DNA from: Stylophora pistillata
Lineage: Eukaryota
Assembly: GCF_002571385.2 (NCBI RefSeq)
Contig: NW_019217855.1
Location: forward strand, 843,830 to 907,829
DNA: 64,000 bases
Direction of reading: 5' to 3'
Made by a program: the position numbers and the translations under genes. Below are positions 10,048 through 15,471 of the stretch, in pieces. The notes beneath the pieces were generated by a model. The model saw only the letters and a list, made by a program, of their open reading frames with translations, was not told the DNA's origin and did no database searches. The first letter of the stretch is position 1, and each line of letters begins with the position of its first letter.

Positions 10048-13000
10048 ATGGCACTGTGGCGAGCTAGTGTCGCTTTATCTTTCGTATTGTTGTTGTTATT
10101 CCTCATTCCATCCGTGGAATCGAGGAGAAGACGACCAAAAGGAAGAAAAGACGATCACAAGCAAGCTACTCTTCAGGAGCTTTGCCGTAAGTCGGGGCAG
10201 AACTCAAGAAAGAACATTTTGGAACTCCAAGCATTTGTCGACCTCAGCAAGGTATTACACTTCAAAGTTGTACGAAACGGCCTTGGTTATTACATCATAA
10301 ATCGAAGATTTAATGACCTTCATATCTGAAAAAGGTTTCAAATTTGGCATGTGTTTTTTCCTTTTGTAGGCTTTCGCATGTTTGAAGGTAGAAACATGTT
10401 CAAGAATTCCAGTTTGTTTCGTCGAGGATACGCCCGACCTCAGACAAGAAAATCTGAACGACTGTACAGTTTGGAGCCTACTCTTGTTAGGGCTGCAGGT
10501 ACTGCCGGTAGCTACACTTAAGATCTGTTTTCTTTTTCGTTCGTACACACGTTCCTTGCTCTTGGAACTTGAACAAGTAATGAATTTCGATCTTCCTATA
10601 TTGTACAAAATGTACAATGTAAGGCCTCTGGAGAAAGTTGCAGCGTAGGCAAACATAAGAGAACGCCATTTCTAGGATATTTTTAAACTCAATTTCAAAC
10701 GAGTATGGAGATTTGGTTGTCGATGCTCCATTAAATTCTGCTAGACTCAGGAGAAGCGGCTTATTTCTGCTGAAACCACAAAACTGATTTGTAAGTTAAA
10801 GTTTTCGCGCTTTACACGAGAAAAAAATTCAACCCGACTATAAGAGATTCCTTGACAACAATTTCTTAAGTGGCAAAAGATCCACGACGTTTTTGACAGC
10901 ATATTACACAGCTGAAAGGTTTATTACACAGCTCAAAGGTTTATCGACATCGTCAGCAAAATCAAGGAAATACAAGGGAACAATTTGAACTCTATACAAT
11001 GCCCTTTCATTCGAAAGGCACGTGCAACCAAATATATGAGCTAAGACATGAAAGATGGGGTGTAACTATTTTTACAGGTCTCATAAATCAGCAAAGAACT
11101 TTCCTGGTAACAATAAATTTATTTTGTTCTCACTAGACGCCAATCTGTGTAAATACTACCTCTTTCAGAAAACATTCCTAAATTTTGTAAAGAACGAAGA
11201 TGCTTCCCAATAGTTGAGGTCAGGACGAAACCTCTCGCTCACGTTCATGGGAAAACAAGATGATGCCGAGAAATGATTGATCATGCGTTGACCCTTTCGT
11301 TTGGAAAGCCTCAAAAATTCCTTCGTTCTTGACATGTTGACCCATTATGATTGCCTTACATTCCTTGTCATAAGCTATTGTTACGTGAATTTAGTGCTAC
11401 AGTACATAGAAGCGTACTCTCTAAAGAAAGTGTAGACAAAATACTTTTTAATATGATTTTTCGACAACTTTTAAGCGCCCGACTGAGAACTTAATAAACT
11501 TGCGGATCGCGTTGATAGATCGATAAATGGTTGTCTTGACGTGGCCTTGTCAAAGATAGGTTATATGTCCTTATTAATTGACTCTTTTGCGATTGCTCAT
11601 GTTCTAATATAATCAACTGCTGTTGTAGGAGATAAATCATTTCCTAACCTGTCGCATGGTTATATGTGGTGTTAGTACGCCGAGATTTCTTGGAGGAGTC
11701 AGTTCCTGTTTCCTGATACAGTTGTTTTATGAATCGGTTAATGACAGCTGTTAAGACTGTCATAGCGTATTCGTCGAAATCATATCGCGTAAGCCGTCTT
11801 GGTTTCAAATAAGTTCTTGACAAAAAAAAAAGCAACTGAAATTATCTCAAAAGCAAGTATGTAAGCCGATATATTTTGTCAATCATAGTTTAGTAGAAGG
11901 CATAAGTTTCACAGGGTCAAACTGGAACCAAAATTTAACCCAACTGTTTCTCTGGTAAGTAGATCGTTTGTACAGTGAGTGATAAGCTTCTCAAGATACC
12001 TTCCTTTTTTATGCTCATGCGCGCTTTGATCACTGAACGGAACCGTTCATTTTGATGCTCATGGAGTTTTTAAGCTGGAAATTTAGCTTGCAATGGCGTC
12101 TTAAACTTCCAGGATGAGGACACAGGAAAGAAGAATAAAAGGAAAAAGCAGAGAACATTATGATTCCACTTTAGAACTGAAGAGTGGAGGTCTCATGAGA
12201 TCAAAGTTCAGTGTTTGTAATTCTCTTAAAAAAAAAAATCTTGACTGTCTTCCAAGTCTGTTAAGTTTGGAGGATACCGTAATCCAGTTAAAGTGATTAA
12301 AAAACGAGCCGACTCTTTAAAAAAAAAAAAACAAAAAAAAAGAGCTATTTCTGGCAAAGTTTACTATGAGAAAGATAAAATAGAACTATTCGCAATTTTA
12401 GGCAAATGTCTGCTTGGATCTATGCCATGGCAACGTGTCTTTGTATGCTCATCATTTTGAGCGTTTTTTTCGTGCTTGTCTTAAGAGTTTTATTAAAGGA
12501 TATTAGGGGATTTTGCGGATGGATTACTCGTATTAATTTAATTTACAGCAAAAAGGCGGCATTATTTTATTGAGAGTTAAGCGTATTACCAAACTGTTAC
12601 TACAGAAAACATCCAAAACGTATTTTTTTAATGCAAGAGATACCCCAAGGATAAATTCGATTCAGAGTAATTTGGAGTTTTAGCTGCTTCCGGTGATCAA
12701 TACACCCATTACATTAGATACATTTGAAACTCGTTTTTAACCATACCAAGAATACCGTATATACTTCCCTGCCCTTATTGATTGATCAAATGAAAGTATT
12801 GATTCGGATCGAGGAAATACGCGAGGGGGAAGAATATTAAAAGTGCATTGCAACAATTGGGGATAGTCATTGAAGGTCTTAAAGCCATCTCTTTTCTTTC
12901 ACACTAGCCTTTATTGGATCAGTATCGGGCCTTTATTGGGCCAGTATTACGCCTTTATCGGACCAGTACTGAGCCTTTATTGAGCCAGTATTGGAGCAAT

Positions 13001-15471
13001 AGAACATGGCCAAATACCACTAATCAGATTTGTGGGTTGTTGGAGAACGCAATGGAAGAATTAAAAGTTTCATTCAGTTTCCACTGAGTCGGTGGCTGAT
13101 TAAAAGGAAAAATGAAATAAAAAACTGTGTAGTTGAGACACTTCAGAGAAATGACATGCAGCGCTTACATTATTTTATTGCTTTGGTTTCCCCGAGTTCA
13201 GCCGAAGCACAATAACCAGATTATCCGTCTTTCCTTTTTAGACCAATCGACGAATTGAGCCTGTGATGGAAAGCCGTGCGGTAAGTGGTTTCAAATTATC
13301 ATATTATCATATTATATCGTAATCTTATGACGTTAGACATATTTTTTTTTTCATGCTCAGAACTCCATCTAAGCTTAAGATACTTTTATGATAACTTACC
13401 CAAGGTCGCAAAAGAAATGGTTCTTGATCTCAGTGCATCATCAGTATTCCACGTTTAAGACCCTTGAAAACACACTTGATATTTCCATGTGCAAAGTCTA
13501 ACATTCCAAGGTCAAAACACTGCAGTACGAACTGAGACCTTTGGTAAGGTCTGAACTTTTTCAAGTACACAGAAATGGAAGGCTGCACGCTTTGAGTTAG
13601 CTGAGAGTGTTGTTCTCCTCTTGACATTTAGGGTCAGCGGGGCGTTTGATACGTGCGGGAATCAACGTACTTTAAGCCAAGTGCTTACCCTTACTTTTAT
13701 TTCGCCCAATATCTTGTGTCCTGCATGTCCATTATTGGTTTGTGACAGTGCCTACGCATGCGTGTCCGAGAAATGTCTCATAACATACAACTTCGCCATG
13801 TGCGATCCTTATAGAGCGATTTGTGAAAAGATCATGAGACTAGACTGGATGTTTTGCAAGGCCCCCTCCCCCCCATGAAAAAAAAAAATAGGCTGTGAGT
13901 GAGTGCGAAGACCACGATTGAGACATGTTTCAGCAAAGTTTTATCTGACCTACAAACTTCTCTTGGCATTGTAAATCAAAGGAAGTCGAGAATTCCCTCA
14001 ACAATTACCATGGCGGTCCTGAACAAAAATATTTTACAAAGACTTGAAAAGTCGAAAATGACAGACTTTTGCTTGGGTAGATGACTGGAAAAGTAGATTT
14101 ATCAAAAAAAAAAAAAAAAACTGTTTGGAGTCTTTAGGGATTGTGAAGGAGAGATTTTACTCGATGACAAGGTTTTTCCTTTGCTAAAATATCTCGGACT
14201 GATACAGTTTTCTCTGAGTAGCCCTCTTCATGTTAAGGGCAGGTGATTTAAATGTCTAGACCATTAAGAATGTCAAACTATTACTAACAACAATAGTCTT
14301 TTATCTTTAAGTATTAACATGTAAACACATGTTCGCTATATAAGTCCACCCTCCCCTCCCATTGCATTATTACATATTCGTCTGTTGAATCTAGCGTGCC
14401 CTTTTCCAACAGAATCGTCGTAACAATGCGCATGTCAAGCCTCGCACGGACTACACCTGGGACGAGGCCGTTAGCAGCCTTTGCCATGGCGCCAATGTAT
14501 ATCGTTTCATACCCGGGGAAACTGTCGAGGAGGGAGGAAGTAGCAGAAATGAAAGTAAGTGATTATCAAATTTAGCCTGATAAGATAAGTCTTAGAGGAA
14601 GAGTCCAGACATTCAATAGATAATCCTCCCAAAGTTATTTTTAGAATCAAGCTATCGAATCTCCCAGGAACACTTCTACCGAATAAGTCTCTTAAGTTGA
14701 TCCTTTTTTTATTTGTCATTATTGTGTCAGCTGATTCATCGAGTGAGGCGACGGGCGGGGGAGGGGTGGGGTTGGAATGGTTGATAACTTACGGACGGTC
14801 AAAGAGGTCACGACATGGTTTTCATATCATATATTTTAATTGATGTTGATAAATTAGTTGATGTATAGTTAAACACAAACAAGCTACATCATTAATGTTT
14901 CAATAGTTCTGAAGAGATTTTTTCTACGTCTTCAAAAAAGACTCAAATTATTAGACCTGCTTTCTAACTGATATTTTAATGAAAAAATGAAACTTCGTGA
15001 TTAATACGCTGTTTATGATGCCACAAAAACTGATACTGATGTTGTTAGTAATATCAAGGGCATTATCTTGAGATAAATTGCCTTTAAACTAAAATTGTGT
15101 TTTTTTTTTTATCAGCCAACAAAAATTCATCTTCCACTGACACTGGAACGTTGAAACCCAAAACATCCCACAGAAATACAACCCTTCCAAGGAGAAGTCG
15201 CACTCGAAGGAGAAGGCAAGGTGGTGCATTGCTAAGCTCCGTTCTCAGGAGGCAAATGAAGAAGGTGAAAAGACAGAATGCCAACAGCAATTCATCCTGT
15301 GGCATTCTTGATGGTTGTACTCGCATTTGTGTTGGCCAGAACGAGAAATTCACCCATGTGTCCGACTGCACACAGTTTAAGATCCAATGCACGTCTAAAA
15401 AGTTCTTCAGATCTCGTTCAAGAACGGGGAGGGGAAAGGATAAGAGGAAAAACTCACGGAGAAATAATTGA
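10048..15471 (+). CDS. uncharacterised secreted, highly basic Cys-containing precursor, two coding exons, 164 aa
   Basis: Exon 1 (10048-10186) encodes the signal peptide MALWRASVALSFVLLLLFLIPSVES and ends in phase 1 at a perfect GTAAGT. Exon 2 (15116-15471) follows a polypyrimidine tract and CAG, also in phase 1. The joined 495 nt are open to the stop. Additional internal exons cannot be excluded. Confidence 0.7.
12908..12993. repeat. ~21-22 bp minisatellite, 4 copies
   Basis: GCCTTTATTGG-x-CCAGTA-x unit repeated four times with small variations. Confidence 0.8.

What the first reader, a model, noticed from the sequence alone, without database searches (positions are those of the whole stretch)
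10048..15471. Orphan secreted prohormone-like protein, possibly processed into two disulfide-linked chains
Seen: a signal peptide, then RRRRPKGRK..LQELCP, a Ser/Thr-rich spacer, furin-type sites (RSRTRRRR) and a KVKR|Q site. These are followed by QNANSNSSCGILDGCTRICVGQNEKFTHVSDCTQFKIQC (C-x5-C-x3-C-x12-C-x6-C) and an Arg/Lys-rich tail. Five Cys lie after the cleavage site and one lies in the N-terminal piece. Inference: either the sixth Cys links two chains after the spacer is removed (insulin-like logic, but not the insulin Cys pattern), or the odd Cys drives dimerisation. Gln after KR suggests pyroglutamate, and the basic tail suggests matrix/heparan binding as in some growth factors. I do not recognise the family.
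Basis: partly seen in the sequence, partly recalled or inferred. Interest (0 to 1): 0.7.

Follow-up and report, generated by a model that had tools for sequence, protein, structure and literature searches.

The report
Hidden BRICHOS-type proprotein in stony corals
This coral gene encodes a secreted precursor that most likely carries a built-in folding helper (a BRICHOS domain that standard family searches miss) and releases a positively charged, cysteine-bonded peptide whose job is still untested.

Summary
It has five exons, not two. They give 289 aa with 11 Cys, identical at 288 of 289 residues to a database protein; the 'LCP' junction was found in no protein. Full-length relatives occur in stony corals and a sea anemone, and ten Cys are invariant in 12 of 12. 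No Pfam or PDB sequence match is significant. The three missed exons complete a domain whose models rank the proSP-C BRICHOS domain first in all three VIA searches (Z only 3.6-4.0). The alignment ends put invariant D65 and C148 on proSP-C D105 and C189, two of the three BRICHOS hallmark residues. The layout is signal peptide, BRICHOS-like domain, glycosylated linker, conserved basic site (R205), then a cationic piece with a helix, five Cys and a basic tail. It is most likely a divergent BRICHOS proprotein that releases a polyanion-binding peptide. A two-chain, disulfide-linked product stays possible, because each half has five invariant Cys. Function is untested.

The parts
10048..10251 (+). 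Exon 1 (aa 1-68): signal peptide, basic stretch, C46, first strand of the BRICHOS-like domain with D65
   Evidence: donor AAG|GTATTA, phase 0
10048..10122 (+). Predicted signal peptide (aa 1-25); cleavage after V-E-S judged by eye
   Evidence: Kyte-Doolittle peak 3.3; E24 invariant in 12 of 12; no signal-peptide program was run
10240..10242 (+). D65, candidate BRICHOS conserved Asp
   Evidence: invariant in 12 of 12; maps to proSP-C 105 in 6 of 6 BRICHOS rows
10370..10498 (+). Exon 2 (aa 69-111): two strands and helix 1; C72, C78, C84 (10415-10417), C100
13242..13280 (+). Exon 3, 39 bases (aa 112-124): conserved R-[RK]-I-E-P strand
14413..14554 (+). Exon 4 (aa 125-172): helix 2 with L147-C148 (14482-14484), last strand, start of linker
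10216..14508 (+). BRICHOS-like domain, aa about 57-156, spread over exons 1-4
   Evidence: VIA rank 1 = 2yad (Z 3.6-4.0); register
15116..15471 (+). Exon 5 (aa 172-289, stop): rest of linker, processing site, C-terminal piece
15202..15225 (+). Basic processing site ending at invariant R205 (15214-15216), followed by Q-G-G
   Evidence: R205 and G208 invariant in 12 of 12; an R-x-[KR]-R motif somewhere in the linker in 10 of 12
15217..15468 (+). Putative mature peptide (84 aa, net +17): amphipathic helix, sequon, five-Cys core, basic tail
   Evidence: helix 209-226 in the low-confidence model
15298..15390 (+). Five-Cys core C233-C263 (spacing 5,3,12,6)
   Evidence: all five Cys in 12 of 12; spacing exact in 11 of 12, Actinia has an extra Cys
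10187..10192 (+).

Best explanation
A single, intact five-exon gene of a stony coral (organism inferred from its relatives) encodes a secreted, divergent BRICHOS-type proprotein. Step 1, shown: gene structure and conservation. Step 2, inferred from hydropathy: the signal peptide sends it into the secretory pathway, where the linker is N-glycosylated. Step 3, supported by weak fold matches plus residue register (about 0.8): aa 57-156 fold as a BRICHOS domain closed by a C84-C148 bond; C46, C72, C78 and C100 are family-specific extras. Step 4, inferred from the family: this domain chaperones the protein's own C-terminal piece during folding and transit. Step 5, inferred from the invariant R205: a furin-like convertase cuts at or next to R205 and frees a 76-91 aa cationic glycopeptide with an amphipathic helix, a five-Cys core and a basic tail. 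Step 6, least certain (about 0.45): the peptide binds polyanions such as heparan sulphate or mucus and acts as a local matrix-bound signal, like chondromodulin's mature peptide. The odd Cys would give a homodimer or a link back to the BRICHOS half.
For: The BRICHOS idea was noted before the fold results came back. 2yad (proSP-C BRICHOS) ranked first of 48,161 chains with both models: Z 4.0, rmsd 3.5, 67 of 77 aligned, next row 2.9; Z 3.6, rmsd 3.8, 58 aligned. In the second look over 998 chains, BRICHOS entries took ranks 1 and 2 (Z 3.8 and 3.3). Counting from the alignment ends, D65 falls on 105, L147 on 188 and C148 on 189 in 6 of 6 BRICHOS rows. D105 is proSP-C's conserved Asp (PMC9627735, passages) and C121-C189 its conserved bond (PMC8983781, passages). 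D65, C84 and C148 are invariant in 12 of 12. Asp-to-Cys distance is 19-22 and 57-64 residues lie between the Cys; ITM2A has D144, C160, C219 (PMC2751770). A canonical coral BRICHOS protein in the supplement of PMC12960093 has Asp-to-Cys 16, 57 between the Cys, and C-x4-I-Y-R-I (counted by eye); this family has C-x4-[IV][YF]R[FI] in 11 of 12. The core model gives three strands, helix, strand, helix, strand. The layout matches the five features used to admit OAF to the family (PMC9714404). BRICHOS part net -8 to +1 against +14 to +21 for the C-terminal piece in the 11 non-Actinia proteins, the charge split noted for ITM2. For step 6: one copy in the window, a Cys core conserved from corals to an anemone (mean identity 0.67), and a sequon just before C233 in 10 of 12, as chondromodulin's mature peptide is glycosylated (PMC11173128, passages).
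Against: Z 3.6-4.0 is below the level the tool calls meaningful (under 8 may be a common arrangement); the next unrelated row (3.2) is tied. Foldseek found nothing at E<=0.001 (2yad at rank 50 and 25). Pfam BRICHOS and OAF models were not hit, nor any BRICHOS chain by profile. Models are weak (pLDDT 47 and 69). All six BRICHOS rows use numbering ending at 197, so they appear to be the same proSP-C domain, not independent families. The register assumes no gaps over about 8 residues from each end, and C84-to-C121 was not seen. No strand equivalent to BRICHOS beta-1 was predicted; a short helix with C46 lies upstream instead. P0017 has no dibasic pair in the linker and P0018 no R-x-x-R. Actinia lacks the charge split (+9), the amphipathic helix (p 0.23) and the sequon. 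No cleavage, expression or activity data were seen.
Confidence: 0.6

Rival explanations
1. Same BRICHOS precursor, but the released peptide is a membrane-active antimicrobial (host-defence) peptide, like the polychaete BRICHOS peptides and the predicted coral PaBRI-AMP1/2.
For: Net charge +14 to +21 and an amphipathic segment (moment 0.82-1.06, shuffle p<=0.021) in 11 of 11 non-Actinia proteins, which are kin and not independent. Nicomicin is a BRICHOS-borne helix plus disulfide loop (PMC6265681, passages). Corals have BRICHOS precursors with predicted AMPs (PMC12960093).
Against: The piece is 76-116 aa, against 33 aa for nicomicin. It carries a sequon in 10 of 12, and its Cys core is as conserved as the domain (0.67 vs 0.62), whereas defence peptides usually diversify fast (general knowledge). 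The helix is not seen in Actinia. One copy in the window.
Confidence: 0.3
2. After cleavage the two halves stay joined by a disulfide, so the product is a two-chain protein in which the BRICHOS-like domain is a permanent subunit.
For: The ten invariant Cys split five and five around the linker. If they pair only among themselves, one bond must bridge the halves. C100 is Thr in Actinia.
Against: With C100 the coral N-half has six Cys and can pair internally, leaving one C-terminal Cys free for a homodimer. Actinia has three extra Cys that break the parity argument. No bond geometry could be read from the models.
Confidence: 0.25
3. The N-terminal domain is not BRICHOS but an anthozoan-specific alpha/beta fold, and the match is chance.
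For: Low Z, no HMM or Foldseek significance, four extra Cys, no beta-1 strand predicted.
Against: A target named in advance ranked first three times, and two hallmark residues fall in exact register. The overall layout and the Cys motif fit the family.
Confidence: 0.15
4. The first reader's two-exon, 164-aa, six-Cys prohormone with a pyroglutamate-blocked mature chain is the main product.
For: The site at 10187 is a strong donor consensus and the join is in frame.
Against: The five-exon form matches a spliced database protein at 288 of 289 residues. No 164-aa form. The skipped exons are among the most conserved parts. [KR]R-Q is in 3 of 12.
Confidence: 0.02

Closest known systems
proSP-C BRICHOS domain (PDB 2yad, 8ox2, 8ovi)
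   Same: Best structural match in three VIA runs; D65, L147 and C148 in register with D105, L188 and C189; same strand-helix order from beta-2 on.
   Different: Z 3.6-4.0, 13-20% identity. In proSP-C the client is N-terminal, here it would be C-terminal. No beta-1 predicted here; extra C46, C72, C78, C100.
Chondromodulin-1 (LECT1/CNMD) and tenomodulin
   Same: BRICHOS, then furin site, then a long glycosylated Cys-rich mature piece (PMC11173128, passages).
   Different: They are type II membrane proteins, vertebrate-only, with 8 Cys and a hydrophobic C-terminal domain. This one has a signal peptide, 5 Cys and a basic tail. No sequence homology of the mature pieces was shown.
OAF (Out at First, PF14941)
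   Same: Signal peptide, BRICHOS found only through structure, convertase site, 70-aa Cys-rich mature peptide; present in cnidarians (PMC9714404).
   Different: OAF has four disulfides in the mature part; this has five Cys. PF14941 was not hit in five Pfam scans, so it is not an OAF orthologue by that test.
Gastrokine-like coral BRICHOS precursors PaBRI-AMP1/2 (CAH3125467.1, XP_058945786.1) and polychaete BRICHOS AMPs (nicomicin, arenicin)
   Same: Secreted BRICHOS precursor with a basic cleavage site and a Cys-bonded C-terminal peptide; similar Asp/Cys spacing and C-x4-[IV]-Y-R motif (by eye).
   Different: Those hit PF04089 and PS50869 and end in short hairpins with two predicted disulfides. 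This family is missed by Pfam, has a 40-residue glycosylated linker and an 80-residue piece; its motifs were not in that paper's held supplements.
Insulin/relaxin superfamily
   Same: Only the general logic of signal peptide, spacer and convertase sites.
   Different: No insulin Cys pattern, no Pfam hit, and the N-half is a 100-residue alpha/beta domain, not a B chain.

Membership tests
BRICHOS superfamily | N-terminal hydrophobic segment (signal peptide or anchor) | tested here: met
   hydropathy peak 3.3 near the N-terminus; hydrophobic N-terminus in 12 of 12 aligned proteins, by eye; no signal-peptide program run
BRICHOS superfamily | BRICHOS fold (antiparallel sheet, two helices, final parallel strand) | tested here: inconclusive
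   2yad rank 1 (Z 4.0, rmsd 3.5, 67 aligned; Z 3.6, rmsd 3.8, 58; Z 3.8, rmsd 4.0, 65); all below Z 8; Foldseek not significant; beta-1 not predicted
BRICHOS superfamily | Conserved Asp at the end of beta-2 | tested here: met
   D65 invariant 12 of 12, at the end of the first predicted strand; maps to proSP-C 105 from alignment ends, gaps assumed absent
BRICHOS superfamily | Two conserved Cys, on beta-4 and helix 2 | tested here: met
   C84 in strand 83-88 and C148 at the end of helix 2, both 12 of 12; C148 maps to C189; C84-to-C121 rests on spacing only
BRICHOS superfamily | Those two Cys form a disulfide | not testable with these tools
   model coordinates were not returned
BRICHOS superfamily | Sequence match to the BRICHOS profile (PF04089) or to solved BRICHOS chains | tested here: not met
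   no such hit in Pfam or PDB profile; OAF also needed structure and profile-profile methods, so this limits the claim to 'divergent'
BRICHOS superfamily | Profile-profile homology (HHpred-type) | not testable with these tools
BRICHOS superfamily | Convertase site followed by a Cys-bonded C-terminal peptide | tested here: met
   R205 invariant; R-x-[KR]-R in linker in 10 of 12; five Cys in 12 of 12; motif only, cleavage not shown
BRICHOS superfamily | Mature peptide is a nested beta-hairpin bound on face A; chaperone activity | not testable with these tools
OAF family | Match to PF14941; eight Cys in mature part | tested here: not met
   no hit; five Cys
Chondromodulin/tenomodulin | Type II membrane anchor; eight-Cys hydrophobic C-terminal domain | tested here: not met
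   signal peptide at the very N-terminus, five Cys, basic tail
BRICHOS antimicrobial peptides | Cationic amphipathic mature peptide | tested here: met
   11 of 12 by charge and moment; Actinia cationic but not amphipathic
BRICHOS antimicrobial peptides | Antimicrobial activity | not testable with these tools
   needs an assay
Insulin/relaxin superfamily | CC-x3-C-x8-C A chain and two-Cys B chain (pattern recalled) | tested here: not met
   Cys gaps 25,5,5,15,47,84,5,3,12,6; no Pfam hit

The most novel reading that the evidence does not exclude
An unrecognised anthozoan BRICHOS subfamily in which the chaperone domain is not discarded. After convertase cleavage it stays tied by a disulfide to its cationic client (five invariant Cys in each half), giving a two-chain secreted ligand, or a latent peptide that is released by reduction. 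That would join BRICHOS chaperoning with insulin-like two-chain processing in an early-branching animal.
Probability: 0.2. Interest if true: 0.72.

Novelty: new variant of a known kind. Interest (0 to 1): 0.45.

Why it matters
If right, corals and sea anemones have a BRICHOS proprotein family that Pfam misses and that databases list as 'uncharacterized'. It predicts a specific, makeable 80-residue peptide and a specific cleavage site, so the function can be tested directly. It also suggests that long, glycosylated, Cys-rich BRICHOS cargoes of the chondromodulin/OAF type may go back to cnidarians, and that counts of coral BRICHOS genes made with profiles are too low. The kind of system is known, and coral BRICHOS proteins are already in print, which caps the interest.

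Tried and rejected
Two-exon model: rejected. One search's exact-match search found no chain because the window differs from P0015 at one residue; one search resolved it. Stanniocalcin (recalled resemblance of the A-F-A-C-L motif and 11 Cys): dropped, no Pfam hit, the model is alpha/beta, and it is absent from the listed fold rows. Known cnidarian toxin or Cys-rich peptide families: no Pfam hit; the weak chi-conotoxin match (E 0.012-0.025) covers only the signal region and is far under cut-off. LEAP-2 (E 0.13, 1 of 9) and lambda Bet (E 0.07-0.5) treated as chance. P0013 and P0014 dropped as repeat-protein noise. Left out of the 12-protein alignment: P0005 (lacks the N-half) and the fragments or intron read-throughs P0003, P0006-9, P0011-12, P0022-25, P0029-37. 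The ESM Atlas, the cluster look-up and complex prediction gave no answer, so look-alikes, the species behind unnamed hits and the half-to-half contact are unchecked. Literature: 0 papers for four accession names and 0 for three family motifs; 0 motif hits in the five held supplements of PMC12960093, one of which was cut when stored. BRICHOS with coral, cnidaria or Nematostella gave 26, 20 and 4 papers (20, 19 and 4 listed); none of the passages I read describes this family. The supplement of PMC5299404 (alignment of 238 coral BRICHOS domains) could not be read and may bear on novelty.
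Full report
Observation. The exon has real relatives: 10 of the 12 hits in the 1.8-billion-protein search are versions of it; the other two are long repeat proteins and were dropped. Named relatives are stony corals (Desmophyllum pertusum, Orbicella faveolata, Oculina patagonica, Montipora foliosa) and the anemone Actinia tenebrosa, all annotated as uncharacterized or hypothetical. 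I infer that the window is from a stony coral.

Gene structure. The chain 10048-10251, 10370-10498, 13242-13280, 14413-14554, 15116-15471 has four GT-AG introns, gives 289 aa without a stop, and equals P0015 at 288 of 289 positions. P0015 sits on a contig of at most 2691 bases, shorter than the 5424-base gene span, so it comes from spliced sequence. A family profile finds only these five exons in the window.

Conservation. In 12 full-length proteins, C46, C72, C78, C84, C148, C233, C239, C243, C256 and C263 are invariant; C100 is present in 11 (Thr in Actinia). Mean identity to the window protein, leaving out its closest relative, is 0.62 for aa 46-158, 0.25 for the linker and 0.67 for aa 233-264. 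R205 and G208 are invariant. An R-x-[KR]-R motif lies in the linker of 10 of 12; P0018 has only K-K-R and P0017 only a single Arg there. A dibasic pair near that place does occur in about 8 of 12 by my reading, so a second cut after the helix is not excluded.

What the N-terminal domain is. No Pfam family and no solved sequence matched significantly. The full-length model was poor (pLDDT 47), but its core order of strands and helices and its Asp/Cys motifs recalled BRICHOS; I noted this before the fold results. The wide structure search then ranked the proSP-C BRICHOS crystal structure first of 48,161 chains (Z 4.0, rmsd 3.5, 67 of 77 residues; next 2.9) and another BRICHOS entry fourth. A model of the domain alone (pLDDT 69) again gave 2yad first (Z 3.6, tied with an unrelated row at 3.2; the other entry 16th), and BRICHOS entries first and second in the second look (Z 3.8, 3.3). 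Foldseek gave nothing significant. These scores alone would not carry the claim. The register adds weight: counted from the ends of all six BRICHOS rows, D65 falls on residue 105, L147 on 188 and C148 on 189. D105 is the family's conserved Asp (PMC9627735, passages), C121-C189 the conserved bond (PMC8983781, passages), and only one Asp and two Cys are conserved across the superfamily (PMC2751770, parts 1-2 of 3). Limits: gaps near the ends are assumed absent, the six rows appear to be one protein, C84-to-C121 rests on spacing, and no beta-1 strand was predicted. A canonical coral BRICHOS protein printed in a supplement row of PMC12960093 has similar spacing and the same C-x4-[IV]-Y-R ending (by eye; family pattern in 11 of 12). 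I put BRICHOS at about 0.8.

Mechanism. BRICHOS proteins are pre-pro-proteins whose domain chaperones a C-terminal peptide that a convertase releases (PMC9714404, parts 1-2 of 3). This protein has the same order of parts. The piece after R205 is 76-91 aa with net charge +14 to +21 in the 11 non-Actinia proteins, against -8 to +1 for the domain. It starts with an amphipathic segment (shuffle p<=0.021 in those 11, which are kin), has a sequon just before C233 in 10 of 12, five Cys and a basic tail. Actinia differs: 116 aa, seven Cys, no amphipathic signal, and a basic domain. I commit to cleavage at or beside R205 and release of a cationic glycopeptide that binds polyanions. I favour a matrix-bound local signal, as for chondromodulin (PMC11173128, passages), slightly over an antimicrobial role, as for nicomicin (PMC6265681, passages), because of its length, its sequon and its slow change. 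Neither is tested. The odd Cys is unresolved. In corals the N-half has six Cys and could pair internally, leaving a free Cys for a homodimer. The ten invariant Cys split five and five, which would force a bond between the halves if they pair only among themselves.

Comparison and novelty. It works like a BRICHOS proprotein and meets the Asp, Cys-position, signal and cleavage-motif features. The fold test is inconclusive and the profile test is not met, so I file it as a probable, divergent member, not a proven one. It is not OAF, chondromodulin, insulin or the predicted coral PaBRI-AMPs by the tests run. BRICHOS proteins in corals are known (PMC5299404, passages; PMC12960093, passages and supplement rows). 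Searches for four accession names and three motifs found no paper, and the motifs were not in the held supplements of PMC12960093. The supplement of PMC5299404 could not be read, and subscription journals are not covered. PMC13514124 names BRICHOS only among abbreviations. PMC8460488 gave nothing useful. Other papers were seen as search listings only.

Context. Neighbours are unrelated housekeeping genes and mobile remnants: a LINE-type fragment upstream, and phosphatidylserine synthase, CDP-alcohol phosphotransferase and NACHT/NWD1-like genes downstream (100 of the window's ORFs scanned). Nothing suggests a peptide gene cluster.

Verdict. Real gene, wrong model, and probably a hidden BRICHOS-type precursor: a new variant of a known kind. 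Interest 0.45. The most novel open reading, a disulfide-tethered two-chain product, has probability about 0.2.

Noticed in passing
window 2414-3325 (-): Decayed LINE-type retroelement: reverse transcriptase fragment (PF00078, E 4e-5) and the ALKBH8_N-like piece often seen at the end of such elements; another such piece at 26705-26986 (+).
   Followed up: partly
window 44094-45036 (+): Exons of a phosphatidylserine synthase gene (PF03034).
   Followed up: no
window about 51900-55900 (-): Exons of a CDP-alcohol phosphotransferase, choline/ethanolamine type by recall (PF01066), facing the phosphatidylserine synthase gene; two phospholipid enzymes side by side.
   Followed up: no
window 25780-26717 and 51663-52601: A 943-base, 95% identical second copy of part of the phosphotransferase gene region; possibly a duplicated exon fragment.
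   Followed up: no
window 59347-63971 (+): NACHT/NWD1-like gene with a 546-codon open stretch (PF05729, PF25469), running off the window.
   Followed up: no
window 18960-20984 and 31110-33134; 27604-30123: A 2-kb direct duplicate at 99.8% and a 2.5-kb near-perfect palindrome, both beside N gaps; probably assembly artefacts.
   Followed up: no
window 35399-35632 (+): Weak match to the DDX60 PIN-like domain (E 6.5e-4, under cut-off).
   Followed up: no
window 15751 and 16279 (+): Candidate polyadenylation signals downstream of the stop codon; untested.
   Followed up: no
P0028 (Actinia relative): Lacks C100 but has three extra Cys (one in the linker, two in the C-terminal part) and a Pro/Thr-rich insert before the basic tail; annotated as isoform X2.
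   Followed up: partly
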